DNA of 64,000 bases. Source: an uncultured Candidatus Saccharibacteria bacterium. Its GTDB lineage: Bacteria; Patescibacteriota; Minisyncoccia; Phycocordibacterales; UBA9973. Below, one piece after another: positions 23,760-62,766 of this stretch (the stretch's first letter is position 1; every line of letters begins with the position of its first letter). The translations under genes were made by a program, and so were the position numbers. The stretch spans positions 65,898-129,897 of the forward strand of contig CAYGDG010000001.1 in assembly GCA_964348725.1 (NCBI GenBank). Reading direction: 5' to 3'. The notes beneath the pieces were generated by a model. That model was not told the origin of the DNA and searched no databases. It worked only from the letters and a program-made list of their open reading frames with translations.

Positions 23760-23796
23760 TTACATTCTAATATTCTATAGAATTATAGAATAGATT

Positions 23797-24075
23797 ATGA
23801 ACAAAAAATTAGAGTACAGAAAGCTGGAGAGAATAGTCAAAGGTTTTGCGAATCATCGGCGATTACAAGTTTTGGAACTTCTTGAAAAAGAGTCTGAGTT
23901 GTCGGTGGGCGATATAGCAGAAAAAGTAAAATCAGATATAAAAAATATCTCTGCGCACATACATAAGATGGCTATTGCCGGTTTAATTATGAAAAGGAAC
24001 GAGGGAAACATCGTGCGCCATAAACTAACTAATCGTGGTAAAAGTATTCTACAATTCGTTAGAATTATAGAATAG
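23797..24075 (+). CDS. ArsR/SmtB-family transcriptional regulator
   Basis: 92 aa with a winged HTH: RRLQVLELL...LSVGDIAEKV...ISAHIHKMAIAGLIMKR. Confidence 0.75.
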   Translation: MNKKLEYRKLERIVKGFANHRRLQVLELLEKESELSVGDIAEKVKSDIKNISAHIHKMAIAGLIMKRNEGNIVRHKLTNRGKSILQFVRIIE

Positions 24076-24082
24076 ATAAATT

Positions 24083-24550
24083 ATGAAAAAAACCGAAGCG
24101 GCATTTAAGTGGATAGTAAATATTTTAAATGAGCATCAGATTCCTTTCCAAATTGCCGGAGGATTTGCCGCTCGGCTGTATGGGTCTACAAGAGAACTTG
24201 CTGATATCGATATAGATATCCCCGCAGGAAGAATCGAAGACATACAAGAGGATGTGAAAGAATATATAATCTTTGGCCCTGAGATGTATAAAGATGAAAA
24301 TTGGGATTTATTATTGATGACCTTGCGATATGAAGGCCAGGATATAGATATTTCTAGTATTGATACGGTCAAAATTTTTAATCAAAATACCCAGAATTGG
24401 GAAGATGGTGCTTTAGATTTTCAAGATACAAGAATCCATACTGTCTTTGGTCTGGATGTTCCAGTCATTTCTAGGGAAAATCTGATAAAATATAAGAGCA
24501 AGCTCTTGAGAGAAGTAGATAAGCTAGATATTGAAGAAATTTCAAAATGA
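24083..24550 (+). CDS. ANT(2'')/Lnu(A)-family nucleotidyltransferase-like protein
   Basis: IPFQIAGGFAARLYGSTRELADIDIDIP parallels the WIGGGWAIDARLGRVTRKHDDIDLTFP core of aminoglycoside-2''-adenylyltransferase and lincosamide nucleotidyltransferase. About 155 aa. Confidence 0.65.
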   Translation: MKKTEAAFKWIVNILNEHQIPFQIAGGFAARLYGSTRELADIDIDIPAGRIEDIQEDVKEYIIFGPEMYKDENWDLLLMTLRYEGQDIDISSIDTVKIFNQNTQNWEDGALDFQDTRIHTVFGLDVPVISRENLIKYKSKLLREVDKLDIEEISK

Positions 24551-26274
24551 AATCCGAAATCAAAAAATTCTTTAAGGGGGAAGTGGAGGATGATGTGGAA
24601 ACACTCGGCAAGTACAGCCACGATGCGAGCATTTTTGAAGTGCGGCCGCAGGTGGTGTGCTATCCGAAGGATTCGTACGATGTACAGCACCTCGTCGCCT
24701 GGGTGGCGGATAATAAAAAACATCATCCGCATCTTTCCATCACCGCCCGCTGTGCTGGCACGGACATGTCCGGTGCGGCCATTGGTGAATCCATTATTTT
24801 GGATTTCACCCGGCATATGAATAAATTGATTGCATTCTCACCCTCTCCTTTACAAGGAGAGGGCCGGGGTGAGGTGAATTCCACTTCCATCACCGTCCAG
24901 CCCGGTATGTTCTACCGCGATTTTGAAAAAATTACTTTGGAGAAGGGAATGATTCTGCCGTGTTATACCGCTTCAAAGAGCATCAATGCAGTGGGCGGGA
25001 TGTACGGTAATAATTCTGCCGGCGAGCGCACGCTGAAATACGGCAAGACGGAGAATTATATCGTGTCGGCGAAAGTGGTTTTTGCGGATGGTGTTGAAAG
25101 GGAAGTGAAATCTTTTCCGGTAGGTATGATGGAAAAACAGCCAGAGATGTACAGGAAATTGTACGAGCTCGTAAAAAATAATGAAGACGATATTACTCAT
25201 GCAAAGCCGCAGGTAAGCAAGAATTCCGCCGGATATTATTTGTGGAATCTAATCCGGCGGGACTCTGCTAATTTTGCCGCTTTACCCGCAAGCGGGCTCC
25301 GACAGGGCCAAAATTCCCAGAGTCCCGCCTACTTTGATCTGAACAAAGTACTTGTCGGCTCGCAAGGCACGCTCGGCATTGCTACGGAAATCACTTTTCG
25401 CCTCGTGCCAGAGCAGAAATATTCAAAATTAGTGGCGATATTCATGAATGACCTTTCGCCGCTCGGGCGCCTTGTGCCGGAGATATTATCGCAAGAGCCG
25501 GAAACGCTAGAGAGCTATGACGACAAGACTATGAAGCTTGCCGTGCGATTTTTCCCCGATTTTTTAAAAAATAAAGGACTCATCGGAATGATAAAATTCA
25601 TGTGGAGCTTTGTACCGGAATTAAAAATGATGCTCGGTATTCATGGGGGTGGTTTCCCGAAACTCATTTTACTTGCGGAATTTGCCGGCGAAAATGAGGA
25701 AGAAGCGCACAAGAAATGCGAGCGATTGGTGGAACGCATCAAAGAATTTAAATTAAAGACACACATCACAAAGAGCAAAGCTGAGGCGGATAAGTATTGG
25801 GACATCCGTCGGCAGAGCTTCGCACTCCTGCGCAAGCACGTGGCGGGAAAAAAAACCGCGCCGTTCATAGATGACATCATCGTGCGTCCGGAATTCTTGC
25901 CGAAATTTATTCCGGAGCTGAACGCCATACTTTCAAAATATGATTTGACCTATACCATAGCCGGCCACGCAGGCGACGGGAATTTCCACATCATCCCGCT
26001 GATGGATTTCAAACGCGAAGACACGGGGAAGATAATCATGGAGCTGTCAGACAAAGTGTATGACCTGGTGGCGCGCTATCGCGGCTCCATCACCGCCGAG
26101 CACAATGACGGTCTCGTGCGCACGCCGTATCTCGGCAAAATGTACAGTGAAAAGATGCTCCGCCTCTTTGCTGAAACCAAGAAGATTTTTGATCCGCAAT
26201 ACATTCTCAATCCAGGTAAAAAAGTGGGCACCACTAAGCAGTATTTAGCAGAGCATATCTCGAAAAACATCTAG
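24547..26274 (+). CDS. FAD-linked oxidase (GlcD/D-lactate dehydrogenase family)
   Basis: PCMH-type FAD-binding domain (ITARCAGTDMSGAA...TVQPGM) and a C-terminal FAD-oxidase domain. It contains two in-frame repeat insertions. Confidence 0.85.
   Translation: MKSEIKKFFKGEVEDDVETLGKYSHDASIFEVRPQVVCYPKDSYDVQHLVAWVADNKKHHPHLSITARCAGTDMSGAAIGESIILDFTRHMNKLIAFSPSPLQGEGRGEVNSTSITVQPGMFYRDFEKITLEKGMILPCYTASKSINAVGGMYGNNSAGERTLKYGKTENYIVSAKVVFADGVEREVKSFPVGMMEKQPEMYRKLYELVKNNEDDITHAKPQVSKNSAGYYLWNLIRRDSANFAALPASGLRQGQNSQSPAYFDLNKVLVGSQGTLGIATEITFRLVPEQKYSKLVAIFMNDLSPLGRLVPEILSQEPETLESYDDKTMKLAVRFFPDFLKNKGLIGMIKFMWSFVPELKMMLGIHGGGFPKLILLAEFAGENEEEAHKKCERLVERIKEFKLKTHITKSKAEADKYWDIRRQSFALLRKHVAGKKTAPFIDDIIVRPEFLPKFIPELNAILSKYDLTYTIAGHAGDGNFHIIPLMDFKREDTGKIIMELSDKVYDLVARYRGSITAEHNDGLVRTPYLGKMYSEKMLRLFAETKKIFDPQYILNPGKKVGTTKQYLAEHISKNI
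24841..24876. repeat. Family-A GC-rich palindromic repeat inserted in frame in the FAD oxidase gene
   Basis: CCCTCTCC-TTTACAA-GGAGAGGG-CCGGGGTGAGGTG, translated PLQGEGRGEV. About 29/36 nt identical to the copy at 35231-35263. Confidence 0.7.
25279..25330. repeat. Family-B-like palindromic repeat (TTTACCCGC-AA-GCGGG...) in frame in the FAD oxidase gene
   Basis: TTTACCCGCAAGCGGGCTCCGACAGGGCCAAAATTCC, translated LPASGLRQGQNSQSP. It shares TTTACCCGC...GCGGG with the atpG copy at 35561. Confidence 0.5.
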
Positions 26275-34916: not shown

Positions 34917-35855
34917 ATGGCCTCAACGAAAGAAATCAAAAGACGAATAAAGTCGGTGAAGAACACCAAGAAGATAACCAAAGCGATGGAACTCGTGGCG
35001 GCTTCAAAGATGCGCCGCGCGGTGGCGCAGGCGCTTTCTTCGCGCGTGTATGCCGGATATTCGTGGGAGCTTTTGACTTCTCTTTCGGCGCGGTTGGACG
35101 AGATCACGCACCCATTTTTCAATGAAGCCAAAGACGGAAAGACCTTGCTTGTCCTCATCACCTCAAACGGCTCATTGTGCGGAGGATATAACGCGCAAGC
35201 AATCAAAAAGGCTATTTCTCTTCTGCGCGACCCTCTCATTGCCAGGAGAGGGCAGGGTGAGGTAGACATAGTTTCAATAGGAAAGAAAGGCGATGCCGCG
35301 ATGCGCCGGACGGGGCAAAATGTCATCGCCGCATTTACGGACTTGCCCGCCGGGCTCTCGCTTTCCGATGTCTCGCCCATCTCCGCCCTCCTCCTTTCCG
35401 AATACAAAAAGAAAAATTATAAGGAAATATTTGTCGTCTATACGGACTTCGTATCCGCCCTCACGCAGAAGCCGAATATCAGGAAGCTCCTGCCGATTTC
35501 AAAACAAGAAATAAAAGATTTGATAGAGATAGAAAAGAAAGAGGCGAGAGTGGAGAGAGGTTTACCCGCCGTGGCGGGAGTCGGGGCGAATTCAGAAATT
35601 CCTTACCTCATAGAAGGCGACGCCAACAAACTGATAGAAATGCTCGCGGAGAAATTGGTCAGAATGCAGATTTATCAGATGCTCCTGGAGTCCGGAGCGA
35701 GCGAGCAGTCAGCCAGGATGGTCGCGATGAAAAATGCCTCCGAAGCCGCCGGCGAAATGATAGAAGACCTCACCCTCGTCTTCAACAAAGCCCGCCAAGC
35801 CGGCATCACGCAGGAAATATCGGAGATAAGCGCGGGTATGGCATCGGTTAGCTAA
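34917..35855 (+). CDS. atpG: F0F1 ATP synthase subunit gamma
   Basis: MASTKEIKRRIKSVKNTKKITKAMELVAASKMRRA and the C-terminal ARQAGITQEISEISAG are gamma-subunit signatures. It carries two in-frame palindromic repeats. Confidence 0.9.
   Translation: MASTKEIKRRIKSVKNTKKITKAMELVAASKMRRAVAQALSSRVYAGYSWELLTSLSARLDEITHPFFNEAKDGKTLLVLITSNGSLCGGYNAQAIKKAISLLRDPLIARRGQGEVDIVSIGKKGDAAMRRTGQNVIAAFTDLPAGLSLSDVSPISALLLSEYKKKNYKEIFVVYTDFVSALTQKPNIRKLLPISKQEIKDLIEIEKKEARVERGLPAVAGVGANSEIPYLIEGDANKLIEMLAEKLVRMQIYQMLLESGASEQSARMVAMKNASEAAGEMIEDLTLVFNKARQAGITQEISEISAGMASVS
35231..35263. repeat. Family-A GC-rich palindromic repeat in frame in atpG
   Basis: CCCTCTCA-TTGCCAG-GAGAGGG-CAGGGTGAGGT, translated PLIARRGQGEV. 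Paralogous to 24841-24876. Confidence 0.7.
35561..35590. repeat. Family-B palindromic repeat (CCCGCCGTGGCGGG core) in frame in atpG
   Basis: TTTACCCGCCGTGGCGGGAGTCGGGGCGAA, translated LPAVAGVGA. The identical 14-mer CCCGCCGTGGCGGG recurs at 45660. Confidence 0.65.
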
Positions 35856-40024: not shown

Positions 40025-41982
40025 AGTATATCCTCAGGATCTGCATGTACAGAAAATTCCGGTGGTAGGGAAAGGATTTTTACAGCGAGGCGCTCGTCTG
40101 GCATTTTTCCGGCGGGAATTTTGATCAGCATATTTGTGATATATGCGCCTGCCTGCCGTCCGGTAAATGCGGCATAGATGTGCGGCTCGTATTCGCGGAA
40201 TACTTCGGCGAGGGCGTGCTTTATTTCAGCCGCTTGTTCGCGCGTGCCCTGGTGGGTGATTTTAAGAAAGCGCACATACGGCGGATAGCCGAGCTTTTCC
40301 CGGTCCGCTAATTCTTCGCGCACATATGGCAGGATGTTGCCTTCGGTGATGGCGCGCAGGGCCGGTTCATTCGGATTTTTTGTGCGGATGAGCAGGCGAT
40401 TGCTCTTTGCGATGATGGCAAGCAAGAGCTGGAGCGCTCGTTCGCCGATGCGGAAATTCGGTATGGAAAAAAGGGAATCAAGCGAAGCGATGACTGAGAG
40501 CGGCACGCGCTCGGGCAGATACGGAAATGCGAGCTCTGTGCCCACGAGGATGGCGCCGCGGCTCTCGGCGAATTGCGCGGCTATTTTTTTTGCCTGCGGG
40601 GCGGTCTTTACGGATTCTTTGTCCAGCTGGAATATTTCTGTTTTCGGAAAATTTTCGCGGCATGCTTCAGCCACGGCATCCGTACCCACGCCGAGCGGCA
40701 TGAGGTTCCAGCCGCCGCATGTTGCGCACTTGGTATTGGAATCTTTTTCGCTGTGGCAACGGTTGCAGGCGTAGCGGCGTTTTGATTTGTCACGCGAGAA
40801 ATACAGCACTACCGGTGCGGAGCATTTATCGCAGAATACTGGCGTGCCGCAATCGCGGCATACGGTGAGCGTGCCGAGCCCTTTGCGCAGGGAAAAGATA
40901 AAAACATTCTCGCCTTTTTGCAAAGTGCTTTGTATCTCCTCCCGTGCGGCTTCGGGCAGGATATTGAACCCGCCCGGGCGGGCAGGCTTCTCTTCTTTTT
41001 CCAGTATTTTGATTTCGCAGTCTGAATCGGTGCGGAAAGAAAATCGCACTTCGCCGAAGTGTTCGTTCTCGCGGCGGGCGATGGTGTCAAAGCGGAGCAA
41101 CGTGTCCGCAAAGATGAGCCGGGCGCCCATTTTCGCCGCGAAAAATTCGGCAAAGATGCGCAAGTCCAGATATGGGCGTGCGATGAGCTTATACGCGCCG
41201 GAGCTTTCATGCTCTATGATTACTGTGCCGATGTCGGCCCGCGGTATGGATACGTATGGCGCGGTGGCGAGGATGAGCACGGGGTGAGGGCACGCTATAG
41301 TAGCGAGCCAGGTACTCGTCTGCTTTTTTGTGGTCATGCCGCCATGGACGGAGAAAGTAAAATTCTCTATGCCTTTTTGTAATAACTCGGAAAATATTTC
41401 TATGTCGCGCTCGGTGGGCAATACGATAAAGACGGATTTTTTCTCGGCGAATGACGAGCGGATGAGCGTTTTGTAATGCGAGACGCGTTCGGCGAGTGGA
41501 GATTGGAAAAGAAGTTTTTCGGGCACGCTTCGCGCAGAATGTGAATCCTGGGGTCGCATAATTTCCTGCTGGAAATTTGCTCCTGCTCGGCCCGACGGCC
41601 TGTGCAAGACCCCAGGATTCACATTCTGCGCTTTACTGATGAGATCATAATTCTCCCGGAATGCCGCGGGGATGAGCGAAGCGATAGTGTCATTTTTTCT
41701 GGCGGCGGAATATTTTGCCAGCTCCAGCGCGCTTTCTAAAAATTCCGGGCGAAATACGGAGTTGCCTTTTACCTCGGTCACCTTGCGCAGATTGAAATCC
41801 ATATTCTTAATGTCGCTCTTTGCGCCCTCGGCATCTTCAGTGGAAGCCACCAGCCCGAGGATATTTTTTTTACGCACCGGTATTTCCACGATGGCGCCTA
41901 CAGGCGCGTCCTTTGCCGTAAAATACGTCAGGTCCTCGCGGAAAGCGCCTTTTTGGAGGGGAATTACGGTCAGGATTTTCAT
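40021..41982 (-). CDS. priA: Primosomal protein N' (PriA) with degenerate helicase motifs
   Basis: N-terminal 3' DNA-binding domain, Cys-rich zinc-binding insert (CRDCGTPVFCDKCSAPV...CNRCHS...CATCGG) and a C-terminal domain. Walker A is replaced by SPLAERVSHY and DEEH by IEHE. Confidence 0.8.
   Translation of the reverse strand: MKILTVIPLQKGAFREDLTYFTAKDAPVGAIVEIPVRKKNILGLVASTEDAEGAKSDIKNMDFNLRKVTEVKGNSVFRPEFLESALELAKYSAARKNDTIASLIPAAFRENYDLISKAQNVNPGVLHRPSGRAGANFQQEIMRPQDSHSARSVPEKLLFQSPLAERVSHYKTLIRSSFAEKKSVFIVLPTERDIEIFSELLQKGIENFTFSVHGGMTTKKQTSTWLATIACPHPVLILATAPYVSIPRADIGTVIIEHESSGAYKLIARPYLDLRIFAEFFAAKMGARLIFADTLLRFDTIARRENEHFGEVRFSFRTDSDCEIKILEKEEKPARPGGFNILPEAAREEIQSTLQKGENVFIFSLRKGLGTLTVCRDCGTPVFCDKCSAPVVLYFSRDKSKRRYACNRCHSEKDSNTKCATCGGWNLMPLGVGTDAVAEACRENFPKTEIFQLDKESVKTAPQAKKIAAQFAESRGAILVGTELAFPYLPERVPLSVIASLDSLFSIPNFRIGERALQLLLAIIAKSNRLLIRTKNPNEPALRAITEGNILPYVREELADREKLGYPPYVRFLKITHQGTREQAAEIKHALAEVFREYEPHIYAAFTGRQAGAYITNMLIKIPAGKMPDERLAVKILSLPPEFSVHADPEDIL
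40969..40982. repeat. Family-B palindrome CCCGCCCGGGCGGG inside priA
   Basis: 14-nt perfect palindrome of the CCCGCC-NN-GGCGGG type, encoding KPARPGGF on the minus strand. Confidence 0.5.
41532..41631. repeat. ~100-nt compound inverted-repeat (MITE-like) element in frame inside priA
   Basis: Perfect 24-bp arms GCGCAGAATGTGAATCCTGGGGTC and GACCCCAGGATTCACATTCTGCGC flank a 52-nt core that has its own small IRs (TTTCCTGCTGGAAA, GGCCCGACGGCC). Confidence 0.7.
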
Positions 41983-45385: not shown

Positions 45386-46132
45386 ATGAAAAATAAGCTC
45401 ATACACGAAATCAGAGCAGTAAAAAATAAAACAGAGCTGGCGAATATTGTGAAAGCGCAGAGAATTGCCGAGCGGGTTTTGGTTGATGTTTTAAAAAAAC
45501 TCCGCACCGGAATTACTGAACTGGAAGTACAGGATTTTATCTGTGCATCATTTACGAAATACGGTGCGCCGGTGCTTTCTTTTCCGCCTATCGTAGCTTT
45601 CGGAAAAAATACGGCGAATATTCATCACGAGCCAGGGAAAAGTAAATTAAAAAGGCCTGCCCGCCGTGGCGGGGCGGATACAGTGATGTTGGATTTTGGG
45701 TGCACTGTGAATCATTATTGCTCGGACATGACACGCACATATTTCTGGGGCGAGCCGAGTGCGAAGCAGAAGAAAATTTATTTGGCAGTATTGGAAGCGC
45801 AGGAGCGCGCTTTGGCAAAGCTTGCGAAAGGAGAAAAAAATTGCAAAAAGATTGATAGCAGTGCTCGTGATTTTTTGAATAAAAAATTCCCTAAAAATTT
45901 CCAGCATGGCCTGGGGCACGGCGTAGGCACCGTCATCCACGAATGGCCAAATTTTAAGCCGAAAAGCACGGATATTTTGCCCGCCGGATGCGTGATGACT
46001 ATTGAGCCCGGGCTGTATTTCCCAGGCTTTGCTGGTGTGCGCATTGAAGATATGGCGCTCATCACGAAGAGCGGATGCGTGAATCTAACCCATGTGCCGA
46101 AATCGTTCGAAAGTGCTATACTTTCCGCATGA
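45386..46132 (+). CDS. M24-family metallopeptidase (Xaa-Pro aminopeptidase-like catalytic domain)
   Basis: HGLGHGVGTVIHEWP, IEPGLY and RIEDMALIT metal-binding motifs. It lacks the usual N-terminal domain. Confidence 0.8.
   Translation: MKNKLIHEIRAVKNKTELANIVKAQRIAERVLVDVLKKLRTGITELEVQDFICASFTKYGAPVLSFPPIVAFGKNTANIHHEPGKSKLKRPARRGGADTVMLDFGCTVNHYCSDMTRTYFWGEPSAKQKKIYLAVLEAQERALAKLAKGEKNCKKIDSSARDFLNKKFPKNFQHGLGHGVGTVIHEWPNFKPKSTDILPAGCVMTIEPGLYFPGFAGVRIEDMALITKSGCVNLTHVPKSFESAILSA
45660..45673. repeat. Family-B palindrome CCCGCCGTGGCGGG in frame in the M24 peptidase gene
   Basis: 14-mer identical to the atpG copy. It encodes PARRGG within the apparent insert KRPARRGGAD. Confidence 0.65.
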
Positions 46133-50345: not shown

Positions 50346-51230
50346 CTACTTTTTTATTTTAGACGCATCTCGCCATTTTATTTCTTTATCTCTTTTGAAC
50401 CACGTCATCTGCCGCTTGGCGTATTTGTGAATCTCAGAATCCAGTTTTGCCAGCATCTCTGGCTTAGTCATTTTTTTCTGCAAATATAAAGCGAGATAGC
50501 GATACTCCAAGCCGAGCTCAGCCATGCGTTTCCAGGAAAGGCCTTTTTTGTGTAAATTCTGCGCTTCCCTCAGCATGCCTGTTTTCATTCTCTTCAAAAG
50601 GCGAGCATGAATTTTTACTTTCAATTTTTCTTCAGGCAGATACAGCCCGATTTTTTCAAATTGGTATTTTGGAGAAGACTTTTTTATTTTTGGCACTTTG
50701 CCGAGGGCCGTGGCTATTTCAATCGCACGGATTATGCGGACGTTGTTATCTTTATCTATGGTTTTTGCGCGAGCCGGGTCTAGCTTCTGCAATGTAACAA
50801 AATTTGCGATAGCAGACTTTGTTACAAGTTTCTTGCGGAGCGCGGCATCAGGCGGAACTTCGGGTAATACGATACCGTTCACTACCGCATCTATATAAAA
50901 GCCCGTGCCACCGCAGAGGATAGGCGTGTGGCTGCGAGCGATGATTTCTTTTATTTTTACATCAGCCAATTTTTTAAAATCAGCGACAGAAAAAACCCCG
51001 CCACGGCGGGCAAGTTTCTTTGGATTCGCGACATCTAGCAGATGATGCGGCACGCCCCGCATTTCTTTTTTTGTTATTTTACCGGAACCGATATCAAGGC
51101 CTGTGTACACTTGCCGCGAATCAGCGGAGATAATTTCGCCGTTTACTTTTTTAGCAAGCTTTACAGCTAAGTCGCTCTTGCCAGTGGCCGTCTGCCCCAA
51201 TATGACGATGACTTTTGGTTTTTTTTGCAT
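50346..51230 (-). CDS. miaA: tRNA dimethylallyltransferase MiaA
   Basis: P-loop GQTATGKS and the MiaA core DIGSGKIT. Confidence 0.9.
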   Translation of the reverse strand: MQKKPKVIVILGQTATGKSDLAVKLAKKVNGEIISADSRQVYTGLDIGSGKITKKEMRGVPHHLLDVANPKKLARRGGVFSVADFKKLADVKIKEIIARSHTPILCGGTGFYIDAVVNGIVLPEVPPDAALRKKLVTKSAIANFVTLQKLDPARAKTIDKDNNVRIIRAIEIATALGKVPKIKKSSPKYQFEKIGLYLPEEKLKVKIHARLLKRMKTGMLREAQNLHKKGLSWKRMAELGLEYRYLALYLQKKMTKPEMLAKLDSEIHKYAKRQMTWFKRDKEIKWRDASKIKK

Positions 51231-55325: not shown

Positions 55326-57551
55326 TTATGTTATCTGGTTTAACTTATGCGGATTATGATTTGGGCAGGATTTGCTGGAACATCTTTCAGGGATAGTTTT
55401 TGTGCCTTCCATCATCAAGCTACCGCACAGGTCGCAGGTGCGTCCGGTCGGTTTTGCTTTGATTGCATTCTTGCAGTCAGGATAATTTGAGCAGGAGTAA
55501 AAGATGCCGAAGCGGCCGCGGCGTTCCATCATCTCGCCTTTTTTACACGTAGGGCACTGTACGCCCGTCATTTTCTTTTTCTTTTCTTCCTCGTCTTCTT
55601 TTATAAATTTACATTTCGGATAACGCGAGCAGGAAACGAAGGCTCCAAATTTTCCTTCGCGTACTACGAGCTTTCCGCCGCCTGATTTGCCTTTTTTCTC
55701 GCCACAGAGAGGACACATCTCGCCGGTCTCTTTCGGGCCGGCCATTTCCGTACCGTCCAGTTTTAATGCACCTTCGCAGTCCGGATAATTGGCGCAGGAA
55801 TAGAATTTGCCGTTCTTGGAAAGCTTGATAATCATTTTTCCTCCGCACTTCGGACACTTGATATCATCCGGCGCGTCACCGAGATTGGTGGCTTTTTCTA
55901 ATTTATCTTTTTCTTTTACTTCTTTAGTGAATGGGCCGTAAAAATCTTTGAGCGTCTTTTCATATTCGCGGTCACCGGTGGAAATTTCGTCCAGCTTGTC
56001 TTCCATTTCCGCGGTAAAAGTATCTGAAATATAATTTGCGAAATTATTTTCCAAGAAATCAGAGACAACTTCGCCGGTATCAGTAGGGAACAATGTGCGG
56101 CCTTCTTTGCGTACATATTCGCGCTCTTCCAGTGTACGCATAATGCTCGCGTAAGTAGACGGGCGGCCGATGCCGCGGGCTTCAAGTTCTTTGACAAGGC
56201 CTGCTTCAGAATATCTGCCAGGAGGCTCGGTAAATTTTTCTTCTTTGATGAGGTCAAGCAATTTCAAAGCTTCACCCTGTTTCATTTCCGGCAATTCCAC
56301 ATCTTCGCCGCGGGCGTCCTGATCCACTGCCAGCCAGCCGGGGAAAAGCATGCGTGAGCCGTTTGCGGAAAAATCAGGCAAGTCCTCGCGACCTTCTATC
56401 ATAGCGGAAACTTTTGTTTTGAGAAGTTTTGCATCGGTCATTTGCGAAGAAACTGCGCGCTCCCAGATGAGGCGGTAGAGTTTGGATTGCTCATCCGTGC
56501 CGGCATAGCCGTGCTCGATATGCGTCGGGCGAATGGCTTCGTGCGCTTCCTGCGCGTTTTTGGATTTTGTCTTATATATGCGCGCTTCGGCGTATTGTAT
56601 GCCGTATTCTTTTTCCACCATTTTAACTATCTGCTCCTGCGCTACTTTGGAAAGATTCGTGCTGTCCGTACGCATATATGTAATGTGTCCGGCTTCGTAC
56701 AATTTTTGCGCTATCTGCATGGTGCGCGAAGGGGAATAGCCGAGGCGTGTGGATGCAGTCTGCTGTAAAGTGGAAGTAGTGAATGGCGCGCGAGGGCTTC
56801 GCTTCTGTTCGCTTTCCTTGATGCCGGAAATTTTCCAATTGCCTTTTTTGCCTTCGTGTAATATTTCATCTACCAGCTTTTCACCCGCCCCGGCGGGCAA
56901 GTCGCGCGGTTCTTCAGAACAATGCAAAGTTATTTTTGCTTTTTTCTGCGTTTCAAAATCCCCCCAGATGCGGAAGAATTTTTCCGGTACGAAAGCGCGT
57001 ATTTCGCGCTCGCGTTCCATGATGATGCGAAGGGCCGGGGATTGCACGCGGCCGGCGGAAAGGCCGTAGCGCACTTTTTTCCAAATCAAACCCGACAAAT
57101 CATAACCTACCAACCTGTCCAAAACTCTGCGTGCTTCCTGGGCACGGCGCAAAGCCGTATCGATATCCCGCGGATGTTTCAATGCTTCTTCCACTGCGAG
57201 CTTGGTGATTTCGTGAAATGCCACGCGCTGTATCGGCGCTTTTACTTTCTTATCTTCTTTTAAAAGTTCTTCAATATGCCAAGCGATCGCTTCTCCTTCG
57301 CGGTCCGGGTCCGTCGCCAGCATTATCTCGGTCGCTTTCTCAGCGAGGGAGCGCAGTTCGGAAACTACTTTTTCCTTGCCTTTGGAAATTTCATAATGCG
57401 GCACGAATCCCGCTTCCACATCTATCGCTTTCTTATTTGATTTCGGCAAATCCCTCACATGTCCCACGCTCGCGCGCACAGTAAAAGCGCCATCAAGATA
57501 CTTCTCAATGGTCTTTGCTTTGCTTGGCGACTCAACAATCAAAAGCTTCAT
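55326..57551 (-). CDS. topA: DNA topoisomerase I with C-terminal zinc-ribbon repeats
   Basis: TOPRIM KLLIVESPSKAKTI, active-site Tyr region, and at least four C4 zinc ribbons (CPKCGG, CPLCGE, CPTC..., CDLCGS). Confidence 0.9.
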   Translation of the reverse strand: MKLLIVESPSKAKTIEKYLDGAFTVRASVGHVRDLPKSNKKAIDVEAGFVPHYEISKGKEKVVSELRSLAEKATEIMLATDPDREGEAIAWHIEELLKEDKKVKAPIQRVAFHEITKLAVEEALKHPRDIDTALRRAQEARRVLDRLVGYDLSGLIWKKVRYGLSAGRVQSPALRIIMEREREIRAFVPEKFFRIWGDFETQKKAKITLHCSEEPRDLPAGAGEKLVDEILHEGKKGNWKISGIKESEQKRSPRAPFTTSTLQQTASTRLGYSPSRTMQIAQKLYEAGHITYMRTDSTNLSKVAQEQIVKMVEKEYGIQYAEARIYKTKSKNAQEAHEAIRPTHIEHGYAGTDEQSKLYRLIWERAVSSQMTDAKLLKTKVSAMIEGREDLPDFSANGSRMLFPGWLAVDQDARGEDVELPEMKQGEALKLLDLIKEEKFTEPPGRYSEAGLVKELEARGIGRPSTYASIMRTLEEREYVRKEGRTLFPTDTGEVVSDFLENNFANYISDTFTAEMEDKLDEISTGDREYEKTLKDFYGPFTKEVKEKDKLEKATNLGDAPDDIKCPKCGGKMIIKLSKNGKFYSCANYPDCEGALKLDGTEMAGPKETGEMCPLCGEKKGKSGGGKLVVREGKFGAFVSCSRYPKCKFIKEDEEEKKKKMTGVQCPTCKKGEMMERRGRFGIFYSCSNYPDCKNAIKAKPTGRTCDLCGSLMMEGTKTIPERCSSKSCPNHNPHKLNQIT

Positions 57552-61804: not shown

Positions 61805-62766
61805 TGAACTTCTGGAATAAATTAAAAAAGCCTTTTTTTGTCCTCGCGCCGATGGCGGATGTGACGGACTGTGCTTTCAGGCAGATCATAAATAAATACG
61901 GTAAACCGGATGTTTTTTGGACGGAATTCGTATCAGCGGACGGCTTGGCGCATCCGGAGGCGCGGGAAAAACTTTTAATTGATTTTAAATTTACGCCGGG
62001 CGAGCACCCGATCGTGGCGCAGATATTCGGCTCGCGGCCGGAGAATATTGAAAAGGCCGCCGCACTGTGCGCTGAGCTTGGTTTTGACGGCGTGGATATC
62101 AATATGGGATGTCCGGATAAGAGTATAGAAAAGCAATGCGCCGGCGCGGCGATGATGAAAGACCCGGCTCTCGCTAGGGAAGTGATCCGTGCGGCAAAAC
62201 GCGGCGCCCGCCGCGGCGGGCAAGCGCCATTGCCGGTATCGGTGAAGACGCGCATCGGCTATAACAAAAATGAAATACAGACATGGCTAGCGGAAATTTT
62301 GAAAGAAGACGTGGCGGCGCTCACGGTGCATTTGCGAACTCGTAAAGAAATGTCCCTCGTGCCAGCGCATTGGGATGTGATGCCAGAAATCGTGGCGCTT
62401 CGGGATAAGCTCGCGCCGGGTACTTTGATAATAGGAAATGGTGATGCAGTAGATATCGCCGACGCAAAACAAAAAGTAAAAGAAACCGGATGCGATGGCG
62501 TGATGCTCGGCAGGGCAATCTTTGGCAACCCGTGGCTTTTTGCGGAAAAAATTCCAACGCTTGAAGAAAAATTGAAAGTGATGATAGAGCATACGAAGCT
62601 CTTTGAAGAACTACTCGGCCAGCACAAAAACTTCGCAATTATGAAAAAGCATTACAAAGCATATGTGAATGGCTTTGACGGCGCGAAAGAAATGCGAGTG
62701 GAACTAATGGAAGCGGAGAATGCAGACCAGATCGCGGCTATTGTTGACAATTTCATGAATAAGTGA
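61804..62766 (+). CDS. dus: tRNA-dihydrouridine synthase (DusB-like)
   Basis: TIM-barrel Dus signature LAPMADVTDCAFRQI and the FMN-binding Cys loop GVDINMGCP. Confidence 0.9.
   Translation: MNFWNKLKKPFFVLAPMADVTDCAFRQIINKYGKPDVFWTEFVSADGLAHPEAREKLLIDFKFTPGEHPIVAQIFGSRPENIEKAAALCAELGFDGVDINMGCPDKSIEKQCAGAAMMKDPALAREVIRAAKRGARRGGQAPLPVSVKTRIGYNKNEIQTWLAEILKEDVAALTVHLRTRKEMSLVPAHWDVMPEIVALRDKLAPGTLIIGNGDAVDIADAKQKVKETGCDGVMLGRAIFGNPWLFAEKIPTLEEKLKVMIEHTKLFEELLGQHKNFAIMKKHYKAYVNGFDGAKEMRVELMEAENADQIAAIVDNFMNK
62207..62220. repeat. Family-B palindrome CCCGCCGCGGCGGG in frame in dus
   Basis: 14-nt perfect palindrome encoding ARRGG within RGARRGGQAPL. Confidence 0.55.

What the first reader, a model, noticed from the sequence alone, without database searches (positions are those of the whole stretch)
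24841..24876. Family-A GC-rich palindromic repeat inserted in frame in two unrelated genes (FAD oxidase and ATP synthase gamma)
The 36-mer CCCTCTCC-TTTACAA-GGAGAGGG-CCGGGGTGAGGTG at 24841-24876 inside the FAD-oxidase gene has a near copy at 35231-35263 inside atpG: CCCTCTCA-TTGCCAG-GAGAGGG-CAGGGTGAGGT, about 29/36 identical.

Both contain an inverted repeat (CCCTCTC...GAGAGGG) followed by a GGGTGAGGT tail. Both are read in frame, as PLQGEGRGEV and PLIARRGQGEV.

In the oxidase copy this region looks like an extra loop between conserved FAD-domain strands. The genes are otherwise unrelated, so shared ancestry cannot explain the match.

This behaviour matches Rickettsia palindromic elements that colonise ORFs without breaking them, which I do not know to have been described for this kind of genome.
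Basis: seen in the sequence. Interest (0 to 1): 0.75.

Follow-up and report, generated by a model that had tools for sequence, protein, structure and literature searches.

The report
Triplex-motif repeat inside two genes
Two unrelated housekeeping genes of an ultra-small (Patescibacteria) bacterium each carry, in frame, a copy of a ~35-base GC-rich repeat already known from E. coli and many other bacteria (BoxC / intrastrand triplex motif), where it had only been reported between genes.

Summary
Positions 24841-24876 (FAD-linked oxidase) and 35231-35263 (atpG) share CCCTCTC-loop-GAGAGGG-spacer-GGGTGAGGT, well beyond chance (0 of 200 shuffles). Both are translated, and both encode lineage-specific loop residues.

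It is not a new repeat family. It is a low-GC variant of the pan-bacterial BoxC / PIT / TM "intrastrand triplex motif" (Holder 2015; Kaplan 2016). That motif has a pyrimidine arm, a complementary purine arm and a mirror-image G-rich third arm. My scan found it in nearly every phylum.

What is unusual is where it sits. In E. coli it is reported only between genes. Here, and in related Patescibacteria, it lies in frame at insertion hot spots of conserved genes. The same element occurs at a different site of the oxidase in another genome, in reverse orientation in another atpG, and between genes.

In five orthologues, third codon positions of the host gene are saturated (26-40% identity in nine of ten pairwise comparisons). 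Inside the element they are 10-12 of 12 identical, so the DNA is being conserved, not the peptide.

The Rickettsia-palindromic-element analogy holds for behaviour but not for membership. How the element spreads is unknown.

The parts
24841..24876 (+). Copy 1 of the triplex-motif repeat, in frame in the FAD-linked oxidase (codons for PSPLQGEGRGEV). Pyrimidine arm 24841-24850 (CCCTCTCCTT), loop 24851-24853 (TAC), purine arm 24854-24863 (AAGGAGAGGG), spacer 24864-24866 (CCG), third arm 24867-24876 (GGGTGAGGTG).
   Evidence: Nine of ten positions form allowed purine-motif triads. Hairpin DNA fold z = -3.8.
35231..35263 (+). Copy 2, in frame in atpG (codons for PLIARRGQGEV). Pyrimidine arm 35231-35237 (CCCTCTC), loop 35238-35245 (ATTGCCAG), purine arm 35246-35252 (GAGAGGG), spacer 35253-35254 (CA), third arm 35255-35263 (GGGTGAGGT). 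It looks like a partly decayed copy, with a shorter stem and a long loop.
   Evidence: Seven allowed triads. Weak hairpin, z = -1.2.
24547..26274 (+). Host gene 1: FAD-binding oxidoreductase (FAD_binding_4 + FAD-oxidase_C), 575 aa. Copy 1 occupies hot spot 1, between strands at residues 94-98 and 114-117.
34917..35855 (+). Host gene 2: ATP synthase F1 gamma subunit, 312 aa. Copy 2 occupies the variable loop between the helix ending ...KKAISLLR and the strand DIVSIGKKG.

Best explanation
**What it is.** Each site is a 33-36 nt copy of the pan-bacterial G/C-rich 'intrastrand triplex motif', known as BoxC, PIT element or TM. The motif has a pyrimidine arm, a short loop, the complementary purine arm, a 2-3 nt spacer, and a G-rich third arm that mirrors the purine arm. 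The copies here belong to a low-GC subfamily: CCCTCTCCTT-loop-AAGGAGAGGG-YYG-GGGTGAGGT.

**How it got there.** In this Patescibacteria lineage the repeat has entered protein-coding DNA as a DNA-level insertion or replacement. It survives only where the protein tolerates extra residues, namely surface loops that are insertion hot spots. It also survives only in the single sense frame without a stop codon, which is why copies end in G-E-V.

**What it does.** The encoded Pro/Gly-rich peptide is a passenger. What is maintained is the nucleotide sequence, either by selection on a DNA structure or binding site, or by continual copying and gene conversion from other copies. My working mechanism is a structure-prone (hairpin or triplex) repeat that promotes local indels and recombination, and is itself propagated by a copy mechanism not yet identified.

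**Shown versus inferred.** Shown:
- motif identity
- presence/absence polymorphism and multi-site distribution
- loop location
- nucleotide-level conservation
- three-way arm covariation

Inferred:
- how copies are made
- whether a triplex forms in vivo
- whether the element has any effect on the host genes
For: The same sequence is listed 23 times in E. coli K-12 as TM_ECO / BoxC / PIT (PMC4666352). I read it directly at hrpB-mrcB.

**Real repeat in this lineage.** About 1.14 Mb of related Patescibacteria DNA holds 11 copies (9 unique), against 0-1 in shuffles.

**Mobility or repeated origin.**
- An identical element, including the loop TTTACAA, sits at a different oxidase site in L151.
- A reverse-orientation copy sits at a second atpG site in L182.
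- Copies in L141 and L157 lie between genes.
- Different sub-variants occupy the same oxidase site in L206 and L134.
- The site is empty in the closest relative, L209.

**DNA is conserved, not the peptide.** Among five orthologues, third-position identity at conserved four-fold-family residues is 0.26-0.40 in nine of ten pairs (0.65 in the close pair L123-L204). Inside the element it is 10-12 of 12 (P from 6e-3 down to 3e-6). The reverse-orientation and intergenic copies do not encode the same peptide.

**Triplex architecture.**
- The variant base pair C:G to T:A is matched by G to T in the third arm in 10 of 10 Patescibacteria copies, against C:G*G in 130 others.
- Unrelated stems in the same genomes carry matching mirror third arms: 17 of 36 Y/R hairpins, against 0 in shuffles.

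**Loop location.**

**Frame constraint.**
Against: - No transposase, target-site duplication or terminal tag was found, so 'mobile' is an inference from distribution. Filled and empty sites do not differ by a clean insertion. In atpG the net gain is about 15 nt for a 33 nt element, and oxidase site 2 in L151 gains about 27 nt.
- All site-1 oxidase copies share one junction. A single old insertion kept by selection would explain them equally well. The neighbour-joining tree that scatters them is poorly resolved.
- The triad covariation rests on essentially one or two evolutionary events (one subfamily, plus L001 and the viral contigs).
- Triplex formation has been shown only for single-stranded E. 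coli oligonucleotides in vitro. It was not seen in vivo (PMC4666352).
- My sample of Patescibacteria DNA was gathered around the oxidase and nearby atp genes. The high genic fraction is therefore biased.
Confidence: 0.7

Rival explanations
1. There was a single ancient insertion at each site, inherited vertically, and the element is no longer mobile. Its nucleotide sequence is kept by selection for a function inside the transcript or gene, such as an mRNA hairpin or G-rich element that paces translation or transcription at a domain boundary.
For: All five or more site-1 oxidase copies share the same junction and the same loop. The window's atpG copy and those of its closest relatives (L207, L208) share a junction. 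Synonymous sites are conserved. The G-rich half is more conserved than the C-rich arm: 1 substitution in 221 positions against 5 in 104.
Against: The identical element sits at a different oxidase site in L151, between genes in L141 and L157, and reversed in L182. Different sub-variants occupy the same site (L206, L134). Most orthologues lack it, including the closest one. The hot spots also host unrelated repeat families, which fits tolerance better than function. Copy 2's hairpin is not better than shuffles.
Confidence: 0.17
2. It is a true transposable element of the REP/REPIN or MITE type, moved in trans by a dedicated transposase such as a RAYT / IS200-type enzyme that recognises the hairpin.
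For: It is a multi-copy hairpin repeat with unrelated flanks in many genomes. It occurs at different sites in orthologous genes. Tandem or inverted pairs occur, as with REPINs (L004, L033, L077, L182). Copies are present on viral contigs.
Against: There is no GTAG/CGTC tag, no terminal inverted repeats beyond the hairpin, and no target-site duplication. Holder et al. found no link to mobile elements in E. coli. I did not look for a transposase. The element is shorter than any described MITE.
Confidence: 0.1
3. It is a protein-level module, or it arose by chance. On this view a Pro/Gly-rich loop (PxPLxGEGxGEV) is selected convergently in both proteins, or the similarity is a compositional accident.
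For: Both peptides end in G-x-G-E-V and sit in loops.
Against: The similarity exceeds all 200 shuffles. The two copies are read in different frames over the hairpin, and the shared frame is forced by stop codons. Synonymous positions are conserved. The same DNA occurs between genes and reversed, encoding other peptides. The same DNA occurs between genes in E. coli and about 150 other sampled places. The peptide is predicted to be disordered.
Confidence: 0.03

Closest known systems
BoxC / PIT element / TM_ECO G/C-rich class II intrastrand triplex motif (Bergler 1992; Hoyne & Maher 2000; Holder et al. 2015, PMC4666352)
   Same: It has the same three-block architecture and nearly the same sequence. 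E. coli: CCCTCTCCC-TGT-GGGAGAGGG-CCG-GGGTGAGGG. Window copy 1: CCCTCTCCTT-TAC-AAGGAGAGGG-CCG-GGGTGAGGTG. It uses the same spacer types (CCG / TTG / TCG), is multi-copy, has unrelated flanks, and is associated with locally variable DNA.
   Different: In E. coli all 23 copies lie between genes. Here the copies are in frame inside conserved genes. The subfamily carries a T:A*T triad where E. coli has C:G*G, has an A/T-rich loop, and forms 7-9 triads rather than 9. Triplex formation has not been measured for this variant.
G-quadruplex-hairpin-duplex switch motifs HPG1/HPG2 of E. coli (Kaplan et al. 2016, PMC5100583)
   Same: This is the same E. coli sequences described from the G-rich side. The hairpin competes with a structure formed by the G-runs.
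   Different: The canonical form needs four runs of at least three G. The window copies have runs of 2, 3, 4, 2 and 2, 3, 3, 2, so at best a two-tetrad quadruplex. The E. coli motifs are reported as 'none within' ORFs.
Rickettsia palindromic elements (RPE; Ogata et al. 2000, from my own knowledge)
   Same: The behaviour is the same: palindromic repeats inserted in frame in unrelated, often essential genes, at surface positions, without destroying the ORF. Copies also occur between genes.
   Different: RPEs are roughly 100-150 bp, have their own sequence families and are restricted to Rickettsia. There is no sequence similarity and no mirror third arm. This element is 33-36 nt and is found across bacteria.
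Other intragenic small repeats: enterobacterial RU-1/2/3 found intragenically (Delihas, PMC2759123) and Coxiella MITEs that affect proteins (PMC5896051); title and abstract only
   Same: They set the precedent that short non-autonomous repeats can be read through as protein.
   Different: They are longer elements (about 100-170 bp or more) with terminal inverted repeats, and belong to different sequence families.
REP / REPIN elements mobilised by RAYT transposases (Nunvar 2010; Bertels & Rainey 2011; Di Nocera 2013, PMC3733652)
   Same: They are short GC-rich hairpin repeats in many copies, sometimes in inverted pairs.
   Different: REPs carry a GTAG or CGTC tag at one end and are linked to a RAYT gene. 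Neither the tag nor such a link was seen here.

Membership tests
BoxC / PIT / TM intrastrand triplex motif | Pyrimidine arm CCCTCTCC(C), a short loop, and the complementary purine arm (G)GGAGAGGG | tested here: met
   Copy 1 has a 10 bp perfect stem. Copy 2 has a 7 bp stem. Both align with E. coli and other phyla.
BoxC / PIT / TM intrastrand triplex motif | A third G-rich arm 1-6 nt downstream that mirrors the purine arm, giving G*G, A*A or T*A triads (class II purine motif) | tested here: met
   Copy 1 has 9 of 10 allowed triads and copy 2 has 7 of 7. The third arm covaries with the stem: C:G*G to T:A*T. Other stems have matching mirror arms.
BoxC / PIT / TM intrastrand triplex motif | Second-loop types as in E. 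coli (type A TTA, type B CCG) | tested here: met
   Spacers are CCG (copy 1), CA (copy 2) and TTG / TCG / CTG in relatives, against E. coli Table 1.
BoxC / PIT / TM intrastrand triplex motif | Repeated in the genome well above chance | tested here: inconclusive
   There are 2 copies in 64 kb (expected 0.01-0.1) and 9 unique copies in about 1.1 Mb of related genomes against 0-1 in shuffles. The whole genome of this organism was not available.
BoxC / PIT / TM intrastrand triplex motif | Intergenic location (a descriptive feature in E. coli: 'always intergenic', 'none within ORFs') | tested here: not met
   Both window copies, and most copies in the sampled relatives, lie inside ORFs. About 4 of 151 copies in other phyla also lie inside Pfam domains. 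This is a habit of the E. coli copies, not a structural criterion.
BoxC / PIT / TM intrastrand triplex motif | Folds into a stable intramolecular triplex as single-stranded DNA (CD/NMR) | not testable with these tools
   Only hairpin energies could be computed.
Rickettsia palindromic elements | Membership in one of the RPE sequence families, about 100-150 bp long | tested here: not met
   The element is 33-36 nt with no conserved flanks. RPE length and families are taken from my own knowledge. No RPE sequences were compared directly.
Rickettsia palindromic elements | In-frame residence in unrelated genes at tolerated surface positions | tested here: met
REP / REPIN (RAYT-associated) | A GTAG or CGTC tetranucleotide at one end of the palindrome | tested here: not met
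   The flanks of 9 Patescibacteria copies and 151 others show no such tag.
REP / REPIN (RAYT-associated) | A cognate RAYT (IS200/IS605-like Y1 transposase) in the genome | not tested
   The window's gene content was not screened for transposases.
MITE | Terminal inverted repeats flanked by a target-site duplication | tested here: not met
   No direct repeat flanks the copies. Comparisons of filled and empty sites are not clean insertions.
Canonical G-quadruplex (G3+ N1-7)x4 | Four runs of at least three G | tested here: not met
   G-runs are 2, 3, 4, 2 (copy 1) and 2, 3, 3, 2 (copy 2), read directly.

The most novel reading that the evidence does not exclude
The BoxC / triplex motif is a universal bacterial element under direct nucleotide-level maintenance. 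On this reading it is recognised, as a three-armed structure, by a conserved but unidentified machinery that copies or homogenises it. The in-frame Patescibacteria copies would be a natural experiment that shows this, because synonymous sites are frozen while the host gene saturates and because all three arms covary. That would make the motif a new class of minimal (~35 nt) mobile or self-maintaining DNA that can colonise even essential genes such as atpG, and would give the first in vivo evidence that the triplex geometry matters.
Probability: 0.2. Interest if true: 0.8.

Novelty: new variant of a known kind. Interest (0 to 1): 0.55.

Why it matters
BoxC / PIT / TM motifs have been known for about 30 years and occur across bacteria. 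Their function and their way of spreading are still unexplained, and published work treats them as strictly intergenic.

Copies embedded in frame in conserved genes offer an internal clock. The host gene's synonymous sites can be compared directly with the element's own sites. Here that comparison shows the element's DNA is conserved or homogenised far beyond what the protein needs. The third arm also covaries with the hairpin.

This makes two questions directly testable with sequence data and simple experiments: whether the triplex geometry is biologically relevant, and how the motif propagates.

It also shows that Patescibacteria proteins, including ATP synthase gamma, carry repeat-derived loops. 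This matters for annotation, alignment and structure prediction in these genomes.

Tried and rejected
- **Rfam scan of the window.** It returned only four tRNAs and nothing at either site.
- **Phylogeny of presence and absence.** A neighbour-joining tree of 120 oxidase orthologues scatters the element-bearing sequences. The tree is star-like at 65-70% identity, so I do not use it as evidence for multiple gains.
- **Target-site duplications and a conserved longer element.** The flanks are unrelated apart from a frequent 5' TC(T/C)C(A/C) and 3' GAAT.
- **Source of the contig.** Taxonomy therefore rests on the names of homologues: Nomurabacteria, Paceibacterota, Patescibacteria.
- **RefSeq annotation of the E. 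coli copy.** No repeat feature is annotated there.
- **Literature.** I found no paper in the searchable library linking in-frame palindromic repeats or MITEs with CPR/Patescibacteria. This is absence from the library, not proof of novelty.
- **One failed DNA fetch.** DNA for orthologue P0005 could not be retrieved.
- **Readings rejected.** I rejected a peptide-level explanation, chance similarity, and RPE, REP and MITE membership, for the reasons given above.
Full report
**1. The observation.**

- Copy 1 (24841-24876): CCCTCTCC-TTTACAA-GGAGAGGG-CCG-GGGTGAGGT-G.
- Copy 2 (35231-35263): CCCTCTC-ATTGCCAG-GAGAGGG-CA-GGGTGAGGT.

A gapped local alignment gives 29 identities in 35 columns and a score of 21. 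The best match of copy 1 in 200 block-shuffled windows averages 13.0 +/- 1.2 with a maximum of 18. Motif searches expect 0.01-0.11 chance matches. There are no other copies in the window.

Both copies lie inside long ORFs. These are a 575-aa FAD-linked oxidase (PF01565 + PF02913) and a 312-aa ATP synthase gamma subunit (PF00231). Homologue names place the genome in the Patescibacteria / CPR (Nomurabacteria, Paceibacterota).

The peptides are PSPLQGEGRGEV and PLIARRGQGEV. The hairpin part is read in different frames in the two genes, and only the tail GGT-GAG-GTN shares a frame. In each copy the other two sense frames hit TGA or TAG. The common '...GEV' is therefore a consequence of stop avoidance.

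**2. Are the residues insertions?**

*Oxidase.* Among the 120 best orthologues (64-73% identical), the segment between FTRHMNKLI.F and ITVQP ranges from 4 to about 45 residues.
- The closest relative (L209, 73%) reads F-QGDS-ITVQ with no element.
- A solved glycolate oxidase has a 10-residue gap opposite PSPLQGEGRG.
- An AlphaFold model (mean pLDDT 72.7) puts residues 99-113 in coil between strands 94-98 and 114-117, with pLDDT below 50 at 101-111.

*atpG.* The lineage baseline is LKQDTTKE-IDF. The window has LRDPLIARRGQGE-VDI, a net gain of about 5 residues. Many orthologues carry other inserts at the same loop. One solved gamma subunit has a loop of equal length and another is 4 residues shorter. 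The oxidase copy is a clear insertion. The atpG copy is better described as a replacement of a variable loop.

**3. What the element is.**

Hits came from Pseudomonas, Xanthomonas, Enterobacteriaceae, Planctomycetota, Dehalococcoidia, Verrucomicrobiota, cyanobacteria and others. The flanks are unrelated, and the consensus is CCCCTCTCCC-loop-GGGAGAGGG-YYR-GGGTGAGGG.

A full-text search for the two G-rich blocks led to two papers.
- Holder et al. 2015 (PMC4666352) list 23 such 'TM_ECO' copies in E. coli K-12. They equate them with BoxC and with Maher's PIT elements, and show by CD and NMR that the single strand folds into a class II purine triplex. They found no triplex signal in duplex DNA or in vivo, report the copies as 'always located intergenically', and link them to locally variable DNA.
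- Kaplan et al. 2016 (PMC5100583) describe the same sequences as a G-quadruplex/hairpin switch, with 'none within' ORFs.

I read the E. coli hrpB-mrcB copy directly. It aligns with the window copies.

The window copies keep the triplex register. Copy 1 has 9 of 10 allowed triads and copy 2 has 7 of 7. They differ from the common form at one triad. C:G*G in 130 copies from other phyla becomes T:A*T in 10 of 10 unique Patescibacteria copies, and also in one Melioribacteraceae copy. That is a coordinated change in all three arms, although it reflects few independent events.

A sequence-agnostic search of about 1.0 Mb of non-redundant Patescibacteria DNA looked for perfect pyrimidine/purine hairpins. 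It found 36, of which 17 have a mirror third arm, against 1-2 hairpins and 0 mirror arms in shuffles. Several have quite different stems, for example CCTCCCCT/AGGGGAGG/GGAGGGGT and CCCCTCCTT/AAGGAGGGG/GGGGTGGTA. The three-arm architecture, not one sequence, is what recurs.

**4. Behaviour in related genomes.**

I fetched 89 loci of related Patescibacteria DNA around oxidase and atpG orthologues. The first 83, together with the window (1.14 Mb), hold 11 copies of the motif (9 unique), against 0-1 in shuffles. Contexts are as follows.
- Oxidase site 1 carries the same loop TTTACAA, with single-base variants in two cases, in the window, L121, L123, L204 and L205.
- The same site carries different sub-variants in L206 (shorter loop, different frame over the hairpin, peptide SPLLSGEGQGEV) and in L134.
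- The identical element sits at a different oxidase site in L151 (before FDLNKLLVGSQG).
- atpG site 1 carries the element in the window's closest atpG relatives, L207 and L208 (APLLNKERGGGEV).
- A reverse-orientation copy sits at a second atpG site in L182 (LSPTPLLNKERGE).
- Copies in L141 and L157 lie between genes.

Other triplex families sit in frame at oxidase site 2 (L136, L141) and atpG site 2 (L207, L208).

The habit is not exclusive to Patescibacteria. About 4 of the 151 copies from other phyla lie in frame inside Pfam domains: Planctomycetota LigA adenylation domain, YgiQ Radical_SAM_N, PMT_2 and PrmC.

The T:A*T subfamily also occurs on 21 stretches of low-GC IMG/VR viral contigs. 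Most of those copies lie between genes, and one 7.3 kb contig has five copies.

**5. DNA is conserved, not the peptide.**

I compared five orthologues that carry the element at oxidase site 1.
- Overall nucleotide identity of the host gene is 0.66-0.75 in nine of ten pairs. Third-position identity at conserved four-fold-family residues is 0.26-0.40 in those nine pairs, which is essentially saturated. The tenth pair, L123-L204, is more closely related (0.86 and 0.65).
- Inside the 12 element codons, 32-34 of 36 nucleotides are identical, and 10-12 of 12 third positions are identical. Binomial P ranges from 6e-3 down to 3e-6.

Together with the reversed and intergenic copies, this excludes a peptide-level explanation. 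It means either selection on the nucleotide sequence or structure, or recent copying or gene conversion from other copies.

Among 13 Patescibacteria copies the pyrimidine arm has 5 substitutions in 104 positions. The purine arm has 0 in 104 and the third arm 1 in 117. This hints that the G-rich half is the more constrained part. Ascertainment by pattern limits the weight of this result.

**6. Mechanism.**

The best-supported reading has four parts.
- A short structure-prone repeat of the BoxC/TM class enters DNA by an unidentified copy process.
- In gene-dense Patescibacteria genomes it is retained where the product tolerates it, namely surface loops that act as general insertion hot spots.
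- It is retained only in the open frame.
- It is kept similar to other copies at the DNA level.

I found no target-site duplication, no GTAG/CGTC tag and no terminal repeats. Filled and empty sites do not differ by a clean 33-36 nt. Classical transposition is therefore not demonstrated.

The main rival is one old insertion per site, conserved for a function within the gene or mRNA. It explains the shared junctions and the synonymous conservation. It does not explain the identical element at another site, the sub-variants at one site, the intergenic copies, or the sharing of the hot spots with unrelated repeats.

**7. Comparison with known systems and novelty.**

The element passes the structural criteria of the BoxC / PIT / TM family. 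It fails only the descriptive 'intergenic' habit.

It works like a Rickettsia palindromic element but is not one, given its length, sequence and distribution. It lacks the defining features of REP/REPIN and MITE elements, and its G-runs fall short of a canonical G-quadruplex.

I found no paper in the searchable library describing in-frame copies of this motif, or in-frame palindromic repeats in CPR genomes. That library is incomplete.

I therefore rate it a new variant of a known kind. The motif is known. It comes here as a new low-GC subfamily with a new in-frame habit, and the nucleotide-level conservation bears on an old open question.

**8. Verdict.**

The element itself is known, but its residence in essential genes, its frozen synonymous sites and its three-arm covariation are unexpected and testable.

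Noticed in passing
window 25247-25338: A second in-frame palindromic insert lies in the same oxidase gene, at hot spot 2. It has 35-nt arms that are 77% complementary and encodes RRDSANFAALPASGLRQGQNSQSPAY. The AALPASGLRHGQNF-type peptide recurs in many orthologues at both hot spots, so this is another repeat family. The AlphaFold model has pLDDT below 50 at residues 240-257.
   Followed up: partly
window 35565-35578, 40969-40982, 45660-45673, 50997-51010, 56884-56897, 62207-62220: Six copies of a 14-nt GC-rich palindrome, CCCGCC-N2-GGCGGG, all lie inside long open frames. They read as ARRGG, PAVAG, ARPGG or PAGAG. One sits in atpG at its second variable loop (RVERGLPAVAGVG). This is a separate family of in-frame palindromes.
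   Followed up: partly
oxidase orthologues P0001-P0120 and loci L124-L203, hot spots after FTRHMNKLI and after GYYIWNV: More than half of the orthologues carry 8-45 residue inserts at these two loops. The inserts fall into a few recurrent peptide families: KNSSGLTLPGVPGGTHTVQNSS, KNFGAFALGDKGQGTHDAKN, NFSTLLHPSGGTFRxQNYP, SSPDKGRLGGV and EGIIPRxxEGS. Many are bounded by KN(S/F)...QN(S/F), which suggests about 60-nt elements with inverted ends. In-frame repeat colonisation looks pervasive in this lineage.
   Followed up: partly
L207 6118-6148, L208 7877-7910, L136 1349-1380, L141 1177-1208, L148 2381-2412, L174 1785-1819: Other three-arm triplex-type repeats have different stems but matching mirror third arms, for example CCTCCCCT/AGGGGAGG/GGAGGGGT and CCCCTCCTT/AAGGAGGGG/GGGGTGGTA. 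Several are in frame in atpG site 2, oxidase site 1 or oxidase site 2.
   Followed up: partly
L211-L231 (IMG/VR viral contigs), especially L212: The low-GC T:A*T subfamily of the motif occurs on 21 stretches of viral contigs, mostly between genes. L212 has five copies in 7.3 kb. Holder et al. reported no association with phages in E. coli. Whether these contigs are true phages, or what their hosts are, was not checked.
   Followed up: no
L063 (Planctomycetota LigA), L108 (YgiQ radical SAM), L110 (PMT_2 glycosyltransferase), L010 (PrmC): In-frame copies of the canonical GGGAGAGGG/GGGTGAGGG motif lie inside Pfam domains of genes from other phyla. Residence inside ORFs is rare, but it is not unique to Patescibacteria.
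   Followed up: partly
L004 421-755 (Pseudomonas crudilactis), L090 224-723: The motif occurs in tandem arrays with a unit of about 150-270 bp whose flanks are also conserved. In some genomes it is therefore part of a longer repeat unit.
   Followed up: no
window 41532-41555 / 41608-41631: A perfect 24-nt inverted repeat (GCGCAGAATGTGAATCCTGGGGTC) with arms 52 nt apart lies within the window's most GC-rich stretch (GC 0.51-0.53 at 40-44 kb).
   Followed up: no
window 23764-23808 and 24046-24090: A 45-nt AT-rich direct repeat (ATTCTA.ATTC..TAGAATTATAGAATAGAT), 78% identical between copies, lies immediately upstream of two consecutive small ORFs (23797-24075 and 24083-24550). It may be a duplicated promoter or operator.
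   Followed up: no
window 24836-24876; also L151 and L205: In three copies the 5' flank reads TCTCA/TCA before the pyrimidine arm. CTCACCC there can pair with the third arm GGGTGAG, giving an alternative extended hairpin. This is the minimum-free-energy DNA fold of copy 1.
   Followed up: no
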